Below, piece by piece: positions 17,022-22,720 of a stretch of DNA of 35,405 nucleotides (within the stretch, counting starts at the first letter, position 1; each line of letters begins with the position of its first letter). The position numbers were made by a program, and so were the translations under genes. The DNA is from a virus, in the UHGV virus genome UHGV-0379469; one strand, written 5' to 3'. The notes beneath the pieces were generated by a model, which was given only the letters and a program-made list of their open reading frames with translations, did not search any database and was not told where the DNA came from.

Positions 17022-17411
17022 ATGATTGACGCTCATGACTTCACAAGATGGGTGCGCACACAGGACACCCGTCTGGCTCCCGTTCTTCAGGGATTATTTG
17101 ATCTCTACATCCGTGGTCGTGACAACAGAGCACGCACCACAAAACCGGAGAATGCAGACACCCTTTATTTCACAGTAGACGACTGCTACCGCGTGGACTT
17201 CACACCACACGGGCTGGCGTTGCACTGCCTGACACCACACGGAGAATCACTGCTGGCGTATTACGACTCCCCGGCCTCCGTATTTGCGGCAATGCTGGCG
17301 CATCGCACTGCTGGCGGGTGTGCCTCGCTGAGTGAATACACCGCTGAATTTAACCGCCTTTCTGCCCTCTTCTCGCAGGAGTGGCAGCGCGTGACGGGAT
17401 ACCAGCCATGA
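17022..17411 (+). CDS. hypothetical protein preceding the replication gene
   Basis: 129-aa ORF; its stop overlaps the A start (ATGA). Confidence 0.5.
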   Translation: MIDAHDFTRWVRTQDTRLAPVLQGLFDLYIRGRDNRARTTKPENADTLYFTVDDCYRVDFTPHGLALHCLTPHGESLLAYYDSPASVFAAMLAHRTAGGCASLSEYTAEFNRLSALFSQEWQRVTGYQP

Positions 17412-20248
17412 ATGAGTTTGCATGGAGCTGGAATGAACCACGGCCAGCCATTGATCCGGCCAGATTTACGGAGCACAGGCAGGAAACTGAAACCGACCTG
17501 CAACGCGCCATCCGTTACTACCTTGAGGCAGACAAAAAGGCTCTGGAAGAACAGGAAGCGAAGGAGGAAGCCTTTTTCGCACAATCCACCGTGGGTAAAA
17601 AACTCATGGCATCCCTTGAGGAAGCCGGACAGCGTGAAAAGCTGGCACAAAGCATCATCAGCAAGCGTCAGGCAACAGAACAAGACCCGGTGGCCCGTGC
17701 TTTTGCCACACTGAAGGTGCTTCCCGTTTATCTGCGTGAACCTCTGAGCCGCCACCTCTCTTTCCTGCGCAAAAAACAGGAAGCCGATCGCCAGAAAGGC
17801 AAAAAGAGCTGGCAGGCTGAACGCTACGCGCGCGGAACCCTGCGCAAAATATTCGAACGCCTGGACCGCACCGACCACCGCTGGCTGACACCGGGTTATC
17901 GCTCCCTTGCCGGACGCGAACGCCTGGATGATTTGCTTTACCTGCCGCAGCTCAACAAGCACCAGATACAGACGCTGGCCACCATGACGGCGGCGATGTT
18001 CAGCAGCACCTTCGAAAAACTCTGCGATGGCTTTGGCGCGACCGATGGTGAGCTGACCATGGAGGTGGCACTGAAGGCGTATCAGATGCTGGCCCGCATG
18101 GCGTTACACCTGCACGCCATGCCTCCACATTATGACGCACTGACAACAGACAAAGACCGCAAGAACGAACCGGACACGGAACTGCTGCCGGGCGCAATCC
18201 TCCGCCTGACCTGTGCGGAATGGTGGAAACGCAAACTGTGGCTGTTACGTTGCGAGTGGCGGGAAGAACAACTCCGCGCCGCCTGTCTGGTTTCCAGAAA
18301 AACATCGCCCTATCTGAGCCAGGACGCGTTAAGCGAGTTTCGCGCACAGCGCGAGAAAACACGCGATTTCCTGAAAAGTTTCATGCTGGAAAACGAAGAC
18401 GGGTTCACGATTGATCTCGAGACGGTGTATTACGCGGGAGTAAGTAACCCGGTCCACCGTAAAGCAGAAATGATGGCCACCATGAAGGGGCTGGAACTTC
18501 TGGCCGAAGCCCGTGGCGACAGAGCGGTGTTTCTGACTGTCACCTGCCCGTCAAAATACCACGCCACAACAGAGAACGGTCATCCGAATCCCAAATGGAA
18601 CGGGGCCACCATGCGCGACTCCAGCGATTACCTGGTTAACACGTTTTTTGCGGCGGTCCGCAAAAAACTGAACCGCGATGGCCTGCGCTGGTATGGCATC
18701 CGCACGGTGGAGCCTCACCATGACGGCACCGTGCACTGGCATATGATGGTCTTTGCACATCCGGACGAGATTGAAACCATCGTGTCCCATGTCTGCGATA
18801 TTGCCATTCAGGAAGACCGCCACGAGCTGGGCGATGACATAACTCCGCGTTTTAAGGCTGAGTACGTAGACGGCTCAAAAGGCACGCCAACCAGCTACAT
18901 CGCCACCTACATCGGAAAGAACCTGGACAGCCGCGCCGTGGATGGCATCGACCCGAAAACGGGCAAGCCACGCGTTGACCACGAAACCGGAAAATCAATG
19001 GCAGAGAGCGTGGAACGCGCCATCGGCTGGGCGCGCCTTCACCGGGTCCGCCAGTTCCAGTTCTTTGGCATTCCCTCTCGTCAGGTATGGCGTGAACTCC
19101 GCCGCCTTGCCAGCCAGATGGCACGCAACCCGGAAGGCCCACAACGGCTGAAGGATGATGCAATGGATGCGGTACTCGCTGCCGCTGATGCCGGGTGTTT
19201 TGCCACCTACATTGAGAAACAGGGCGGCGTACTTGTTCCACGCAAAGACTACCTGATTCGCACCGCCTACGACCTCGCAGATGAGCTGAACGATTACGGC
19301 GAACAGAGCGTACAGATTTACGGGATCTGGTCACCACTCATCGGGGAGTCTTCCCGTGTGTGCACACATCCGGATAACTGGAAGCTGGTAAGACGTAAAC
19401 CGGAAGCGGAAGACAGCGCCCGCGAAAATGGTTTTGACCTTCAGGGCGGCCCTGCCGCCCCTTGGACTCGTGGCAATAACTGTCCCCGTGTACAGGAAAC
19501 AGACAACAACGGGACAGAACAGCCGGAAGAACGGCCAGCACCGTGGCCGCAGCTTCCTGACGGCGTTGACGTGAACGAATGGGTGCGCTCACTGAAACGG
19601 CACGAACGCCGGGCGCTGATGCGTTCGCTGCGTGACAAACAGGCAAAAAACAGCAGTGATGAAATGCAGAACTGGACACAGAGCCGCAAACAGCCACAGC
19701 CTTTGCCTGATAACCACGAATTACTCGCTAAAGAATGGCGGGAGTCTGCTGAATCTCTCGGCCTGCATATCGGTGAACAGCAGATGCAGCACCTGTTACG
19801 GGGCGGCAGTCTGTACGTTGACGGCAGCATCATTGCACCGCAGGGATTTGAAATTGTACGCAAACCGGATACCCGCCCGGACAGCCGAATCACGCAGCTC
19901 TGGCAACGCCTGAGCCGTAACCACGGCGTAAGCAGCACGGAGATCCGCCATAACCCAGTCGCCAGCTATCTGGAACAACTAGGGGCATCAGACCCTGAAG
20001 CCGCCGCACGCCTGGCATCCACACTTCAGCAAGACCAGAACACCATGAAAACACCCGTTACCGTACTTTCTGACATGCTGCGCGCCATCCGCGACGCAGA
20101 GCACGAACAGAGAATCAGTGAAACAACTGAACGCGCCCGCCGCAAAGCAGACCTGCTGCGGGGTGACCTGACCAGTGGAAACAAAAAACAGACAGAAACG
20201 GGATTCACAAATCCCGTAAATGAGCAAAAAACGCGCCGCGAAATATGA
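17408..20248 (+). CDS. A: replication initiation protein A (HUH rolling-circle endonuclease)
   Basis: HUH motif ...GTVHWHMMVFAH... and catalytic Tyr motif ...TSYIATYIGKN...; about 946 aa, longer than P2 gpA as I recall it (761 aa). Confidence 0.85.
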   Translation: MNEFAWSWNEPRPAIDPARFTEHRQETETDLQRAIRYYLEADKKALEEQEAKEEAFFAQSTVGKKLMASLEEAGQREKLAQSIISKRQATEQDPVARAFATLKVLPVYLREPLSRHLSFLRKKQEADRQKGKKSWQAERYARGTLRKIFERLDRTDHRWLTPGYRSLAGRERLDDLLYLPQLNKHQIQTLATMTAAMFSSTFEKLCDGFGATDGELTMEVALKAYQMLARMALHLHAMPPHYDALTTDKDRKNEPDTELLPGAILRLTCAEWWKRKLWLLRCEWREEQLRAACLVSRKTSPYLSQDALSEFRAQREKTRDFLKSFMLENEDGFTIDLETVYYAGVSNPVHRKAEMMATMKGLELLAEARGDRAVFLTVTCPSKYHATTENGHPNPKWNGATMRDSSDYLVNTFFAAVRKKLNRDGLRWYGIRTVEPHHDGTVHWHMMVFAHPDEIETIVSHVCDIAIQEDRHELGDDITPRFKAEYVDGSKGTPTSYIATYIGKNLDSRAVDGIDPKTGKPRVDHETGKSMAESVERAIGWARLHRVRQFQFFGIPSRQVWRELRRLASQMARNPEGPQRLKDDAMDAVLAAADAGCFATYIEKQGGVLVPRKDYLIRTAYDLADELNDYGEQSVQIYGIWSPLIGESSRVCTHPDNWKLVRRKPEAEDSARENGFDLQGGPAAPWTRGNNCPRVQETDNNGTEQPEERPAPWPQLPDGVDVNEWVRSLKRHERRALMRSLRDKQAKNSSDEMQNWTQSRKQPQPLPDNHELLAKEWRESAESLGLHIGEQQMQHLLRGGSLYVDGSIIAPQGFEIVRKPDTRPDSRITQLWQRLSRNHGVSSTEIRHNPVASYLEQLGASDPEAAARLASTLQQDQNTMKTPVTVLSDMLRAIRDAEHEQRISETTERARRKADLLRGDLTSGNKKQTETGFTNPVNEQKTRREI

Positions 20249-20293
20249 AGTGCGCACAAAACAGGCAAAAGCGGGATTTCAGAATCCCGTAAA
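20199..20293. repeat. two 22-bp palindromic iterons 73 bp apart, upstream of parM
   Basis: CGGGATTcacaaATCCCGTAAA (20199..20220, inside the 3' end of A) and CGGGATTtcagaATCCCGTAAA (20272..20293, intergenic); each an interrupted GGGATT/AATCCC palindrome. Confidence 0.6.
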
Positions 20294-20324
20294 CGGTTAA
20301 TTAATCAACATAAGGAAAATCGAC

Positions 20325-21284
20325 ATGAAAATTTGTATCGACGACGGCTCCACCAACATCAAGCTGGCATGGACTGAGAACGGCGAACGCCGCAACGCCA
20401 TCAGCCCGAACAGCTTCAAGTCGGAATGGTCTGCGCCGTTCGGTGGCACGCAGCCCGCGAACTACATGCTTGATAGCGTGCGCTATGGTTTTGATCCGGT
20501 CAGCGATCGCTTTGTCCAGACGACTGACACGCAATATCAGTACAGTGATGTGAATGTCATTGCCATTCATCACGCGCTGGTCAAATCAGGCATCACGCCA
20601 CAGGAGGTGGATGTGGTTGTCACCCTGCCACTGAGCGAGTATTTCGACACAAACGCACAGCCGGACATGGCCAACATCAACCGCAAAAAAGCGAACGTTA
20701 TGCGCCCGGTGGAATACCAGAACGGCGAAGCATTCACTATCCGTAATGTACGGGTTATGCCTGAATCCATTCCGGCTGGCTTTAAGGCACTGGCTGACAT
20801 GAGTCCGTTTGAATCCCTGCTGATTGTGGATTTAGGCGGAACCACGCTGGATGTGGCAAAGGTTCAGGGACAACTGGCAGGTATCAGCCAGGTGTTTTGC
20901 GATCCACACGTAGGCGTTTCCCTGATGGCCGATGCCGTACTGTCGGTGATGGCCACTAACGGTATGCGTACCAGTCACCACATCGCCAATACCATTATTG
21001 AGCACCGTCACGATGAAGCCTGGCTGCGCCAGCACATTCACAATGACGCGCATTACAACAGCCTGATGGCGGTTATTCGTGAAAAGGAGGAGACACTGAA
21101 ACAACGAGTGATCCGCGCGCTGGCGGGTTTTTCCGGTTACGGGCGGGTGATGGTTGTCGGTGGAGGGGCGGAGATTGTGGCACCCGCTATCCGCGAAGCC
21201 TGCGGAGTTAATGCGACTTTCATCGCGGACGGGGTGCCACAATTTGCTCTGGTTAATGGGCTGTACGCAATGAACAAGGAGTAA
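20325..21284 (+). CDS. parM: ParM/StbA actin-like partition ATPase
   Basis: MKICIDDGSTNIKLAW... N-terminus and ...DLGGTTLD..., ...VMVVGGGAE..., ...LVNGLYAM motifs aligning with plasmid R1 ParM as recalled. Confidence 0.8.
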   Translation: MKICIDDGSTNIKLAWTENGERRNAISPNSFKSEWSAPFGGTQPANYMLDSVRYGFDPVSDRFVQTTDTQYQYSDVNVIAIHHALVKSGITPQEVDVVVTLPLSEYFDTNAQPDMANINRKKANVMRPVEYQNGEAFTIRNVRVMPESIPAGFKALADMSPFESLLIVDLGGTTLDVAKVQGQLAGISQVFCDPHVGVSLMADAVLSVMATNGMRTSHHIANTIIEHRHDEAWLRQHIHNDAHYNSLMAVIREKEETLKQRVIRALAGFSGYGRVMVVGGGAEIVAPAIREACGVNATFIADGVPQFALVNGLYAMNKE

Positions 21285-21288
21285 ACCA

Positions 21289-21600
21289 ATGACGACACCA
21301 ACCAGAAGAATAAGTTTCTATCTGAAGCCAGCTGCCGTCAAGAACGAAGGAGAAGCATGCGCCTGGCTGGACAGCCTTACACCAGAAGCCCGCAAAAGCG
21401 GCCAACGCGTGGCTTTTCTGGCCGGGCTGGCACTTCTGAAGACGAATCCGGCAGAGGCTTACCGACTGGCCGCATGGGCTGATGATGAGATGTTACCTGT
21501 GACACAAATCAGCTCAAAAAAGTTTGAAGCACAGTCTGCACCAGTGGCTAAGATAACCAGCCAGATGGCTGGGAATATCCGGGCGTTATTTCCTGAGTAA
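21289..21600 (+). CDS. parR: ParR/StbB-like partition adaptor (DNA-binding)
   Basis: 103 aa directly after parM; RRISFYLKP...LAGLALL...RALFPE pattern resembles ParR. Confidence 0.6.
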   Translation: MTTPTRRISFYLKPAAVKNEGEACAWLDSLTPEARKSGQRVAFLAGLALLKTNPAEAYRLAAWADDEMLPVTQISSKKFEAQSAPVAKITSQMAGNIRALFPE

Positions 21601-21728
21601 AAGCATCTGCACGAAAAATGCTCACGTTTATAGAAACAGTATCATTCCATTTGGCACACTTACTTCAATAATCGATCTGTTAAACAAATAGATTGTCTAT
21701 TATCTATCGATTAAAACGATCAATTATC

Positions 21729-21757
21729 TTGACAGTAATGTGCCTTTTTGTAAGATC
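21729..21757 (+). promoter_or_regulatory. sigma70-like promoter candidate bracketed by an 11-bp inverted repeat
   Basis: TTGACA, 16-nt spacer, TAAGAT; flanked by CAATTATCTTG (21721..21731) and its reverse complement (21775..21785). Confidence 0.35.
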
Positions 21758-21964
21758 GTTCGCATTGTGAGCGACAAGATAATTGCGCGGCATTGTCCAT
21801 GCAAAACGCCCCAATAGCAGCAACTATTGGGGCGTAAAACTCGGTCGGACTCACTTAACCTGATATGCGTGCCTTCCGAAGTAAATCAAAATGTGCGTCG
21901 TATATTTTATTGCTTACACGCACCTCTGTAAAGGCACGCATATTTTTCCTATGAGGTAAATAAA

Positions 21965-22234
21965 GTGCGGGCTAAAACAGGTATTTGCAAGAACCCTCAT
22001 CGTTATAACCCAACATTTCTGTCTCTCCCTGAATATCAAGGACAAGAAGGTCGGCACAAATGCGCTGCCTGTGCTTTTGAGCTAGGCATAAAAGATGCGC
22101 TTGAAGGACGCGCTATGGCTCAGAATGATTTAGTTTTAGCTAACATTCCGTTTAGCCAGGCTGGAACTGTAAGGCACAGAGATGCCTATGAAGCATATGT
22201 TCGTGGTTGGCGATTAATACACAGCAACAATTGA
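21965..22234 (+). CDS. hypothetical protein (hotspot cargo; GTG start)
   Basis: 89-aa ORF followed by a strong intrinsic terminator; no family recognised. Confidence 0.4.
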   Translation: MRAKTGICKNPHRYNPTFLSLPEYQGQEGRHKCAACAFELGIKDALEGRAMAQNDLVLANIPFSQAGTVRHRDAYEAYVRGWRLIHSNN

Positions 22235-22242
22235 TACTTTTG

Positions 22243-22268
22243 AAGCGCCGATAAGGCGCTTTTTTTTG
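22243..22268 (+). terminator. rho-independent terminator
   Basis: AAGCGCC gataa GGCGCTT stem-loop followed by T8. Confidence 0.7.
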
Positions 22269-22720
22269 TTTGCACGATAGTGCACAAGTTTGCACAATTT
22301 TTTTGAACGACTTTTTGTACTTCCGGCCCGCATGGCGGCTGGATCCGTCAAGGATCCGTGCGTGCACAAAAAAATGCGTTTTTTCTGCGCGCAGGTGACG
22401 GGGGAACAGCCCGCGTTTCAGGGGGTAAATAGCATTCCCTGAACGATGTCGCAGCGACACAACAGAATGGCTGTATTTCTCACACTGAGCGTGAAAAAGA
22501 CGTGAGGGCTTTTGATTTGATGGGGTGACAGACAAGGCCGTCAAAATCGCACTGAGGCGGCGAGAACATGCAGTCAACGCGGTGGGATTGCGTAAGAGTC
22601 TGACTGTCGATGATGGCAATAAGCAGGAAAGCGTCGTGAAATTATCTGATTGATACAAGAGCTGGAGAGTCGGGGCATAAATTTTTTATGCCCCGGCGAA
22701 GCAGCAGACAAGCGAAGCGC
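22268..22720. other. probable cos / packaging region (not pinpointed)
   Basis: Noncoding tract at the 3' end of Q, where P2-type phages carry cos; three TGCAC motifs phased at 10 bp (22271, 22281, 22291), GGATCCGT direct repeat, stem-loop at 22670..22694. Confidence 0.3.

What the first reader, a model, noticed from the sequence alone, without database searches (positions are those of the whole stretch)
21601..21960. Repeat-dense noncoding tract downstream of parR: ATTATC cluster, operator-like inverted repeat around a promoter, and a nested palindrome
At least three ATTATC(T) motifs occur within 21669..21785 (21691, 21723, and reverse-complement at 21778). An 11-bp perfect inverted repeat CAATTATCTTG (21721..21731 / 21775..21785) brackets a TTGACA-N16-TAAGAT promoter. 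Further on, a nested palindrome ATGCGTGCCTT...TGTGCGT...ACGCACA...AAGGCACGCAT spans 21864..21941. This looks like a regulatory or centromere-like site (second parC, or operator for the downstream ORF) or a structured RNA.
Basis: seen in the sequence. Interest (0 to 1): 0.5.

Follow-up and report, generated by a model that had tools for sequence, protein, structure and literature searches.

The report
Antisense-RNA-controlled leader of a prophage moron
The repeat-rich stretch after parR is most likely not a plasmid-type centromere but the control region of a small self-contained prophage gene, with a promoter, a long folded mRNA leader and a predicted, previously undescribed ~70-100-nt antisense RNA gene that is conserved next to this gene in prophages of many enteric bacteria.

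Summary
The repeats are real and non-random: three perfect inverted repeats of 11-13 bp lie in 360 bp, and 0 of 1000 shuffles gave two. The window is a P88-like (P2-family) prophage. The tract is the 5' control region of an 89-aa gene (ORF89, 21965-22234).

Comparison with about 45 distinct relatives shows a shared architecture:
- a sigma-70 promoter on the + strand (21729-21756);
- a roughly 200-nt structured leader;
- a convergent minus-strand promoter (TTTACA-17-TAAAAT, 21932->21904), kept as TGTAAA plus TAnnnT in 43 of 45 sequences;
- a G+C hairpin (21806-21835) that works better as minus-strand RNA and shows strong covariation.

Together these predict a cis-antisense sRNA of about 97 nt (about 21897->21801). 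No transcript has been observed.

Its right arm can instead pair with the start-codon region. The sRNA 5' end copies that arm, which suggests translational repression by helix competition.

The upstream dyad block travels with ORF89, not with ParR, so parC is not supported. The 11-bp promoter-bracketing repeat is lineage-specific and unexplained.

Nothing matches Rfam. ORF89 has no annotated family beyond PHROG phrog_3941 (function unknown).

The parts
21668..21727 (.). 60-bp imperfect dyad block directly upstream of the + promoter (GATC-N9-aATAGAT-N8-ATCTATC-N9-GATC, with two ATCGAT sites). Operator-like or UP region; the binding factor is unknown.
   Evidence: I1: 26-nt arms, 73% complementary. 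Conserved at about 90% in the sister P88-like lineage although the flanks diverge. Its core motif is unique in the window. Absent after parR in L067 and L068.
21718..21721 (.). GATC 11 nt upstream of the -35 hexamer. Further GATC sites lie at 21674 and, overlapping the -10, at 21754.
   Evidence: A GATC 9-11 nt upstream of the -35 start is present in 19 of the 22 family representatives with a called promoter. Three GATC occur in 111 nt, against 2.3 per kb window-wide.
21729..21756 (+). Sigma-70-type promoter P(+), TTGACA-16-TAAGAT, for the ORF89 mRNA. Predicted transcription start about 21763.
   Evidence: An equivalent promoter sits at the same place relative to the ORF in relatives.
21721..21731 (.). 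Left arm of the 11-bp perfect inverted repeat. It overlaps the first three bases of the -35.
   Evidence: (I7). Not conserved in the L002/L050 lineage.
21775..21785 (.). Right arm of the 11-bp perfect inverted repeat, at about +13 to +23 of the predicted mRNA.
   Evidence: (I7). Lineage-specific.
21763..21964 (+). Predicted structured 5' leader of the ORF89 mRNA, about 200 nt: a 5' hairpin, the G+C hairpin, and a long-range helix.
   Evidence: Folds. The helices are kept with different sequences in relatives.
21806..21835 (-). 12-bp G+C hairpin, read as the terminator stem-loop of the antisense sRNA. It is followed by UUUGCA on the minus strand and by A-rich sequence on the + strand.
   Evidence: I4. 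Covariation: 8 of 12 pairs show double changes and 97.6% of cells are paired. More stable as minus-sense RNA in 17 of 23 representatives; G.U pairs 32 against 6. The Klebsiella relative has a canonical hairpin plus U7.
21801..21897 (-). Predicted cis-antisense sRNA of about 97 nt (65-75 nt in most relatives): 5' single strand, internal stem-loop, U-rich spacer, terminator hairpin. Both ends are predictions.
   Evidence: Covariance model R1 hits the window only here (21799-21855 minus strand, 30.9 bits, E about 6e-6).
21904..21932 (-). Sigma-70-type promoter P(-), TTTACA-17-TAAAAT, of the antisense sRNA.
   Evidence: TGTAAA lies 34-50 nt before the start codon, with TAnnnT at 17-nt spacing, in 43 of 45 unique family sequences. 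The -10 variants include TAAAAT, TACGAT, TAGACT, TACTCT, TAATCT, TACAAT, TAGTAT, TAAACT and TAACCT.
21863..21875 (+). Left arm of the long-range leader helix. It lies inside the region complementary to the sRNA.
   Evidence: I3. Left and right arms pair in most of the 23 representatives with different sequences (z <= -1.5 in 18 of 23).
21931..21943 (+). Right arm of the long-range leader helix, overlapping the P(-) -35 (it shares 21931-21932). It can alternatively pair with the start-codon region (CGCAU with GUGCG).
21965..22234 (+). ORF89 (GTG start; Shine-Dalgarno GAGG at 21953-21956). A small basic soluble protein with invariant C8, H12, C33 and C36. It is the regulated gene.
   Evidence: (phrog_3941).
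22242..22268 (+). Intrinsic terminator that closes the ORF89 module.

Best explanation
The tract is the cis-regulatory region and 5' leader of a self-contained prophage accessory gene (a moron), ORF89. It also contains a convergently transcribed antisense sRNA gene.

Proposed mechanism:
1. P(+) at 21729-21756 starts an mRNA with a leader of about 200 nt.
2. P(-) at 21932->21904 starts an sRNA of about 97 nt that ends at the hairpin 21835->21806. It is therefore fully complementary to the middle of the leader.
3. In the free mRNA, the left arm (21863-21875) pairs with the right arm (21931-21943). This keeps the right arm away from the ribosome-binding site and start codon, so translation is ON.
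4. The 5' part of the sRNA has the same sequence as the right arm. When it pairs with the left arm, the right arm is released and folds onto the Shine-Dalgarno and start-codon region, so translation is OFF. The long duplex is probably also an RNase III substrate.
5. The dyad, GATC-rich block upstream of P(+) is an operator or UP-type element of this promoter, possibly sensitive to Dam methylation.

Shown by comparison:
- conservation of both promoters, the hairpin and the helices;
- covariation of the helices;
- the strand bias of the hairpin;
- independence from ParR.

Inferred only:
- that transcription actually occurs;
- the direction of regulation;
- RNase III involvement;
- any role of Dam or of a bound protein.
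For: 1. Family-wide architecture.
- Nine diverse loci align with an invariant TGTAAAG and a hairpin whose pairing is kept while its sequence changes.
- In 43 of 45 unique sequences, TGTAAA is followed at exactly 17 nt by TAnnnT on the minus strand.

2. sRNA shape.
- 23 representatives fold into a 5' tail, stem-loop a and a G+C terminator stem-loop b.
- The Klebsiella member has a textbook terminator with U7 on the minus strand.

3. Covariation.
- 96.5% of cells are paired.
- 11 of 18 pairs have changes on both sides.
- 0 of 500 shuffles reach the observed values.
- Slid controls give 39-63% paired.

4. Strand.
- G.U pairs number 32 in the minus sense against 6 in the plus sense.
- The hairpin is more stable as minus-strand RNA in 17 of 23 representatives.

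5. Specificity.
- The covariance model finds one strong hit in the 35-kb window, at 21799-21855 on the minus strand.

6. Leader helix.
- Left and right arms pair in most of the 23 representatives with different sequences. Eighteen of 23 beat shuffled controls at z <= -1.5; for the window type dG is -26 and z is -4.4. Five, including the sister-lineage representative L003 (z -0.3) and L064 (z +0.8), do not stand out.
- This helix can only form in the + transcript, because the predicted sRNA start lies between the arms.

7. Switch.
- The 3' segment alone buries the Shine-Dalgarno or start codon in most representatives (mean z -2.0; 16 of 23 below -1.5).
- Masking the sRNA target lowers accessibility of the translation-initiation region in 11 of 11 leaders.

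8. Not ParR-linked.

9. Within the window's lineage, SNPs pile up in 21596-21656, while 21657-21964 is nearly invariant.
Against: - No expression data exist: both promoters, both transcription starts and the sRNA 3' end are predictions.
- The minus-strand U-tract is short (UUUGCA in the window; UUCCC-type in many relatives), so termination efficiency is uncertain.
- The invariant TGTAAAG also takes part in the mRNA helix, so part of its conservation could come from + strand structure alone.
- The predicted accessibility change is modest in the window itself (0.55 to 0.44). The window's OFF hairpin is not more stable than shuffled sequence (z -0.6).
- The long-range helix does not beat shuffled controls in 5 of the 23 representatives.
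- The alignment used for pair counting was fitted to the model, which favours the structure.
- The role of the 11-bp inverted repeat and of the dyad block is not explained by the RNA model.
Confidence: 0.7

Rival explanations
1. The tract, or its 5' half 21660-21790, is a ParR-bound centromere (a second parC) for the adjacent ParMR system.
For: - It lies directly after parR.
- It is repeat-rich and dyad-symmetric.
- It brackets a promoter, as R1 parC does (my own recollection of R1, not tested here).
- The conserved N-terminal part of ParR (residues 1-65) and the block are both conserved between the window and the L002 lineage, although the full ParR proteins are only about 52% identical.
Against: - No direct-repeat or iteron array was found by Tandem Repeats Finder or the repeat finder.
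- L067 and L068 encode a ParR identical to the window's over residues 1-50, with a single substitution (T52M) up to residue 67. After parR they have only a 60-100-bp spacer and other cargo, with no block.
- The promoter points away from parMR.
- The remaining elements recur with ORF89 in loci that have no parMR.
- A different conserved pair of palindromes lies upstream of parM in all P88-like loci.
Confidence: 0.05
2. The locus is a type I toxin-antitoxin or abortive-infection module. ORF89 is a toxic effector kept silent by the antisense sRNA, which stabilises the prophage or kills infected cells.
For: - The layout matches type I loci (general knowledge of hok/sok, ldr/rdl and symE/symR): a long structured leader, a convergent short antisense RNA with its own promoter, and a location on mobile elements.
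- ORF89 homologues occupy accessory-gene slots: the P2 gpA-portal slot, downstream of cI in lambdoid prophages, and next to mom or an integrase. From my own knowledge, these slots often hold exclusion or defence genes.
Against: - ORF89 is not a small hydrophobic peptide: it is 89 aa, has GRAVY -0.54 and has no transmembrane-like segment.
- It has no hit in PADLOC.
- In other phyla its homologues sit, without this leader, inside DpnII-type restriction-modification operons. That is hard to reconcile with a stand-alone toxin.
- Toxicity has not been tested.
Confidence: 0.2
3. There is no antisense RNA. The conserved TGTAAAG, hairpin and helices are purely + strand leader elements, such as a protein-binding or sensor leader that controls ORF89 translation, perhaps autoregulated by ORF89.
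For: - All helices can also form in the + strand leader.
- UGUAAAG pairs within the leader helix.
- The minus-strand U-tract is weak in many members.
Against: - The exact 17-nt spacing to TAnnnT is kept while the spacer and -10 sequences vary. A + strand RNA model does not explain this.
- G.U pairs are strongly biased to the minus sense.
- One member has a canonical minus-strand terminator.
Confidence: 0.12
4. The 11-bp inverted repeat and the TTATCT copies are a split operator for a phage or host repressor that loops the DNA around P(+). Centre-to-centre spacing is 54 bp.
For: - It is a perfect 11-bp repeat with p of about 0.007 by shuffling.
- The arms flank the -35 and the +13 to +23 region.
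- The same AATTATCT core occurs a third time in the dyad block.
Against: - It is absent from the sister lineage, which keeps the block, the promoter and ORF89.
- No other copy of the motif exists in the window's immunity region (for the block core; for ATTATC).
- No candidate binding protein was identified.
Confidence: 0.2

Closest known systems
Type I toxin-antitoxin loci with an antisense RNA against the toxin leader (hok/sok, ldrD/rdlD, symE/symR)
   Same: A short antisense RNA with its own promoter is transcribed convergently within or against a long structured 5' leader. The leader has alternative foldings that decide translation. The loci sit on prophages and plasmids.
   Different: The regulated protein is an 89-aa hydrophilic, probably zinc-binding protein, not a membrane peptide. 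Toxicity is unknown. There is no sequence or Rfam similarity. The sRNA does not cover the Shine-Dalgarno or start codon; it covers an upstream anti-sequestering arm.
FinP/traJ of F-like plasmids
   Same: The antisense RNA is about 70-80 nt and has two stem-loops, a short spacer and a short tail. It is transcribed from a promoter inside the target's 5' leader. In Salmonella pSLT the pair is also influenced by Dam methylation at promoter GATC sites (my own knowledge, not tested here).
   Different: FinP covers the traJ ribosome-binding site and needs FinO. Here the target is upstream of the ribosome-binding site, and no chaperone gene is linked.
IS10 RNA-OUT/RNA-IN with a Dam-sensitive pIN promoter
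   Same: Dual control is suggested: a roughly 70-nt stable antisense RNA against the 5' end of the mRNA, together with GATC sites in or next to the sense promoter (here at -46 and overlapping the -10).
   Different: RNA-OUT pairs with the translation-initiation region itself. Dam dependence here is only inferred from the conserved GATC positions.
Phage antisense RNAs (P22 sar, lambda OOP)
   Same: Small phage-encoded cis-antisense RNAs that end at a G+C hairpin. The weakest Rfam similarity of the hairpin is to sar and ctRNA models (22 bits; the gathering thresholds are 43-45).
   Different: The scores are far below threshold and only the terminator hairpin matches. The target gene and genome position differ.
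R1-type parC centromere (ParMRC)
   Same: It is adjacent to parMR, and repeats flank a promoter.
   Different: There are no iterons. The tract is not co-inherited with ParR, and the promoter drives a different gene.

Membership tests
ParMRC centromere (parC) | An array of several direct repeats (iterons) bound cooperatively by ParR | tested here: not met
   Tandem Repeats Finder finds nothing in 20100-22300. The repeat finder gives only two-copy 10-nt matches.
ParMRC centromere (parC) | Co-inheritance with the cognate ParR DNA-binding domain | tested here: not met
   L067 and L068 have a ParR identical to the window's over residues 1-50, with one substitution up to residue 67, but no block after parR. 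The rest of the tract occurs without ParR.
ParMRC centromere (parC) | Specific ParR binding | not testable with these tools
   Needs EMSA or footprinting.
Cis-encoded antisense sRNA gene | Its own promoter on the opposite strand inside the target transcription unit | tested here: met
   TTTACA-17-TAAAAT, conserved in 43 of 45 unique relatives. This is sequence evidence only; no transcription-start data exist.
Cis-encoded antisense sRNA gene | A defined 3' end (intrinsic terminator) on that strand | tested here: inconclusive
   The hairpin is conserved, covaries and favours the minus sense. The U-tract is short in the window (UUUGCA) and in most relatives, and canonical only in L065/L066.
Cis-encoded antisense sRNA gene | Conserved secondary structure supported by compensatory changes | tested here: met
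   11 of 18 pairs have double changes, 96.5% of cells are paired, and 0 of 500 shuffles reach this. Caveat: the alignment was fitted to the model.
Cis-encoded antisense sRNA gene | A detectable transcript | not testable with these tools
   No RNA data were available. Literature searches found no description.
Type I toxin-antitoxin system | A small (usually under 60 aa) hydrophobic or otherwise toxic protein | tested here: not met
   ORF89 is 89 aa with GRAVY -0.54. The maximum 19-residue hydropathy is 0.58. Toxicity was not tested.
Type I toxin-antitoxin system | An RNA antitoxin that base-pairs with the toxin mRNA | tested here: met
   The predicted sRNA is fully complementary to 21801-21897 of the leader. 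This is prediction only.
Any Rfam RNA family | A score at or above the family's gathering threshold | tested here: not met
   The best hits in the tract are 19-22 bits against thresholds of 43-80. Nothing at the gathering threshold falls in the tract or the homologous leader in 10 related loci; the only hit there is an unrelated tRNA in L065.
Restriction-modification controller (C) protein with C-box operator | A small helix-turn-helix protein encoded next to an endonuclease gene, with a palindromic operator before its own promoter | tested here: inconclusive
   ORF89 has no helix-turn-helix or Pfam domain. Homologues in other phyla do lie next to or inside DpnII cassettes, but there is no endonuclease in the window. 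A dyad block precedes the promoter in the window, but it is not shared with other family members.

The most novel reading that the evidence does not exclude
ORF89 may be an orphan accessory or controller protein of GATC-specific (DpnII/Dam-type) restriction-modification systems that enteric prophages have captured.

In this reading its expression is gated twice:
- by the methylation state of the conserved promoter GATC sites, so that it is on in unmethylated or hemimethylated DNA after entry or during rapid replication;
- by a dedicated antisense sRNA that flips a leader helix.

The module would then act as a methylation-state-triggered circuit. It might exclude incoming DpnII-type systems or phages, or tune Dam methylation of the phage genome.
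Probability: 0.12. Interest if true: 0.8.

Novelty: new member of a known kind. Interest (0 to 1): 0.55.

Why it matters
- It turns an unannotated 360-bp gap, found in about 3% of complete E. coli genomes (166 of 5426 with near-full-length copies), into a defined gene-control module with testable coordinates.
- It adds an undescribed cis-antisense sRNA and leader family that recurs in P2-like, lambdoid and Mu-like prophages of Escherichia, Salmonella, Cronobacter, Proteus, Providencia, Yersinia, Rahnella, Edwardsiella and Klebsiella.
- It points to an uncharacterised small zinc-type protein family that is tightly regulated in prophages and embedded in DpnII restriction-modification operons elsewhere.
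- It corrects the natural assumption that repeats next to parR are the centromere. That matters for anyone who annotates or engineers P88-like phages.

Tried and rejected
- Rfam at permissive and gathering thresholds found only sub-threshold terminator-like hits.
- Pfam, NCBIfam, PADLOC, PDB sequence search and PDB fold search for ORF89 gave no informative match. The afdb50 fold library was unavailable.
- RNAalifold on a plain MAFFT alignment failed because hairpins of different length were out of register. I replaced it with a covariance-model alignment.
- A search for other copies of the dyad core in the window, for example at the immunity region, found none.
- tblastn of ParR against plasmids, meant to borrow a known parC motif, returned only 7 records. 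Those I inspected are P88-like elements and the rest were not examined, so no comparison with R1 was possible.
- LexA box, P2 late-promoter TGT-N12-ACA, DnaA box and IHF consensus were checked by eye against 21660-21740. None fits.
- I looked for GATC palindromes upstream of the DpnII-linked homologues, to tie ORF89 to GATC binding. There were none.
- Literature searches for a prior description of the sRNA or of ORF89 found nothing.

Full report
**Observation.**
- An 11-bp perfect inverted repeat lies at 21721-21731 / 21775-21785, around TTGACA-N16-TAAGAT (21729-21756).
- A 13-bp perfect inverted repeat lies at 21863-21875 / 21931-21943. It encloses a 6-bp pair, GTGCGT (21893-21898) / ACGCAC (21918-21923).
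- ATTATC is at 21699, 21723 and 21778 (minus strand), not at 21691.
- In 1000 dinucleotide-preserving shuffles of 21601-21960, only 7 contained one perfect inverted repeat of 11 bp or more, and none contained two. The real sequence has three.

**Context.** The window is a P88-like (Xuanwuvirus, P2-family) prophage. The gene order is gpA replication endonuclease (17381-20248), ParM (20325-21284), ParR (21289-21600; Pfam Plasmid_stab_B), the tract, an 89-aa ORF (21965-22234; PHROG 3941, function unknown), an intrinsic terminator (22242-22268), then portal and terminase on the minus strand. The tract occurs on the chromosome in 173 of 5426 complete E. coli genomes, 166 of them nearly full length at 95% identity or more. 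It carries no annotation in any of them.

**Relatives.**
- A sister P88-like lineage (L002, L003, L046-L050) has ParM 97-99% identical, but ParR only about 52% and ORF89 about 60% identical.
- ORF89 homologues are also found without parMR in Providencia, Proteus, Yersinia, Rahnella, E. whittamii, Cronobacter, Salmonella, Edwardsiella and Klebsiella.
- In those species the homologues sit in other prophage accessory slots: downstream of the cI-type repressor in lambdoid prophages, next to com/mom, or next to an integrase.

**Shared architecture.** In all of these enteric loci the 200-240 nt upstream of the ORF has the same layout although the sequence differs:
- a + strand promoter;
- a 5' hairpin;
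- a G+C hairpin;
- a long-range inverted repeat;
- an invariant TGTAAAG 34-50 nt before the start codon.

**The antisense gene: promoter and shape.**
- On the minus strand TGTAAA reads TTTACA. Exactly 17 nt further on, a TAnnnT hexamer is present in 43 of 45 unique family sequences. At least nine -10 variants occur, and the spacers vary.
- From the predicted start, 23 representatives fold as a single-stranded 5' tail of about 11 nt, an A-rich/U-rich stem-loop, a U-rich spacer and a G+C hairpin. Most are 65-75 nt long. The window type is about 97 nt because of an insertion of roughly 27 nt.
- The Klebsiella member ends in a canonical hairpin plus U7 on the minus strand. In the window the tail is UUUGCA.

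**The antisense gene: model search, covariation and strand.**
- A covariance model built from eight members finds one strong hit in the 35-kb window, at 21799-21855 on the minus strand (30.9 bits, E about 6e-6). Its significant full-length hits in the other loci are all on the minus strand.
- On the resulting alignment, 96.5% of cells pair and 11 of 18 pairs show changes on both sides. No shuffle out of 500 reaches the observed values, and slid controls give 39-63% pairing. The alignment is fitted to the model, which favours the structure.
- The strand test is independent of that caveat. The structures contain 32 G.U pairs when read as minus-strand RNA against 6 as plus-strand RNA. The hairpin is more stable in the minus sense in 17 of 23 representatives.

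I conclude that a cis-antisense sRNA gene is very likely, running from about 21897 to about 21801 in the window.

**The nested palindrome.**
- The predicted sRNA start lies between the two arms of the outer repeat, so the repeat can only form a helix in the + strand mRNA.
- A left-arm/right-arm helix is predicted in most of the 23 representatives, with different sequences. Examples are ATATGCGTGCCTT/AAGGCACGCATAT here, GAGGTGTCATC/GATGAACACCTC in L002, and GAGATCTC- or GTGATCAC-based arms elsewhere.
- Eighteen of the 23 beat shuffled controls at z <= -1.5, and the window type has dG -26 and z -4.4. Five do not stand out, including the sister-lineage representative L003 (z -0.3), for which the duplex program did not pick the arms I read by eye.
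- The right arm overlaps the -35 of P(-), sharing two bases with it.
- When the downstream segment is folded alone, the sequence after TGTAAAG forms a hairpin that buries the Shine-Dalgarno sequence or start codon in most representatives (mean z -2.0; 16 of 23 below -1.5).
- In the window, CGCAU of the right arm pairs with GUGCG, which contains the GTG start codon. This particular hairpin is weak (z -0.6).
- Masking the 35 nt targeted by the sRNA 5' end lowers the predicted accessibility of the initiation region in 11 of 11 leaders. The window drops from 0.55 to 0.44, and the drop reaches 0.34 to 0.09 in others.
- The 5' end of the sRNA therefore copies the right arm. The simplest model is that it captures the left arm, frees the right arm and closes the initiation region. 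This step is inferred from folding predictions only.

**The upstream block and the parC question.**
- The block at 21668-21727 is conserved in the sister lineage while its flanks are not. Within the window's lineage, SNPs cluster at 21596-21656 and spare 21657-21964.
- ParR residues 1-65, which I take to be the DNA-binding part, are also conserved between the two lineages. That alone would permit a centromere reading.
- Against that reading, L067 and L068 encode a ParR identical to the window's over residues 1-50, with one substitution up to residue 67. After parR they have only a short spacer and unrelated cargo.
- There is no iteron array, and the promoter next to the block reads away from parMR.
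- All P88-like loci keep two CGGGAyT-N4-AATCCCGTAAA palindromes 73 bp apart just upstream of parM. I did not test what these are.
- The block is therefore best read as an upstream element of the ORF89 promoter.
- A GATC 9-11 nt upstream of the -35 start is present in 19 of the 22 representatives with a called promoter, and further GATC sites often overlap the -35 or the -10. The window has three GATC in 111 nt against 2.3 per kb overall. This suggests, but does not show, Dam-sensitive control.

**The 11-bp inverted repeat.** It is statistically unusual but absent from the sister lineage. Its left arm is upstream of the predicted + transcription start, so it is not an mRNA hairpin unless transcripts read through from parR. 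Its function remains open.

**ORF89.**
- It is hydrophilic and basic (GRAVY -0.54, pI 9.2), with invariant C8, H12, C33 and C36.
- A confident AlphaFold model (mean pLDDT 86) has no PDB fold match.
- There is no Pfam, NCBIfam or PADLOC family, and every source calls it hypothetical.
- In non-enteric bacteria the homologues lie inside or beside DpnII-type (GATC) restriction-modification cassettes. This held in four of four look-ups, plus L011 and L056. In two contexts the homologue sits between the Dam-class methyltransferase and the DpnII endonuclease.
- Those cassettes have no GATC-rich promoter, so the link to the conserved promoter GATC in the enteric loci is only an idea.

**Comparison and novelty.**
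- The module works like known cis-antisense systems on mobile elements: type I toxin-antitoxin leaders, FinP/traJ, IS10 RNA-OUT and P22 sar.
- It does not meet membership for any Rfam family, for parC, or for classical type I toxins.
- I found no description in the searched literature.
- I therefore rate it a new member of a known kind, with moderate interest. The RNA family and its link to an uncharacterised restriction-modification-associated protein are new. All functional claims rest on comparative and folding evidence, without expression data.

Noticed in passing
window 20199-20216 and 20272-20289: Two copies of the palindrome CGGGATT-N4-AATCCCG followed by TAAA lie 73 bp apart. One is inside the gpA 3' end and one is in the 76-bp gap before parM. 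Both are conserved in all P88-like loci examined, including those that lack the ORF89 cassette. They are a candidate ParR site or parMR control element.
   Followed up: partly
L011, L056, L123-L130 (non-enteric loci): ORF89 homologues are embedded in DpnII-type GATC restriction-modification cassettes (D12 N6-adenine methyltransferase, DpnII endonuclease, N6_N4 methyltransferase; sometimes DUF6996/6997). In two contexts the homologue lies between the methyltransferase and endonuclease genes. The family may be an uncharacterised accessory or controller of these systems.
   Followed up: partly
window 20325-21600 compared with L002, L003 and L046-L050: There is a sharp mosaic boundary at the parM/parR junction: ParM is 97-99% identical but ParR only about 52%. 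ParR residues 1-65 and the last residues (NI.A.FPE) are conserved, and the middle is replaced.
   Followed up: partly
window 22268-22298: The direct repeat GTTTGCAC(G/A)AT occurs twice, 20 bp apart, overlapping the palindrome TGCACGATAGTGCAC. It lies just after the ORF89 terminator, in the region where P2-like phages have cos.
   Followed up: no
window 22663-22716 (+): A sub-threshold Rfam match to the gyrA leader RNA (22 bits against a gathering threshold of 45, E 0.03), at the 3' side of the portal gene region. Probably chance.
   Followed up: no
L002 3626-3913 and L003 3614-3901: The sister lineage carries an extra 95-aa gene after its ORF89 homologue, with a weak PADLOC hit (PDC-S02, E 0.005). 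RefSeq leaves the ORF89 homologue itself unannotated there.
   Followed up: no
L123 ~2760-2775, L129 ~2900-2915, L011 ~200-215: The motif (G)ATATTGCT(T/A)TT recurs upstream of the Dam-class methyltransferase gene in three unrelated DpnII cassettes that carry an ORF89 homologue. It may be a shared promoter or operator.
   Followed up: no
L064 2140-2330: In the Edwardsiella Mu-like locus, the region between com/mom and the ORF89 homologue holds 7-8 GATC sites in about 200 nt. It also contains a CGATCAATCGATAGAT stretch that resembles the window's dyad block. Part of this may belong to the mom regulatory region.
   Followed up: no
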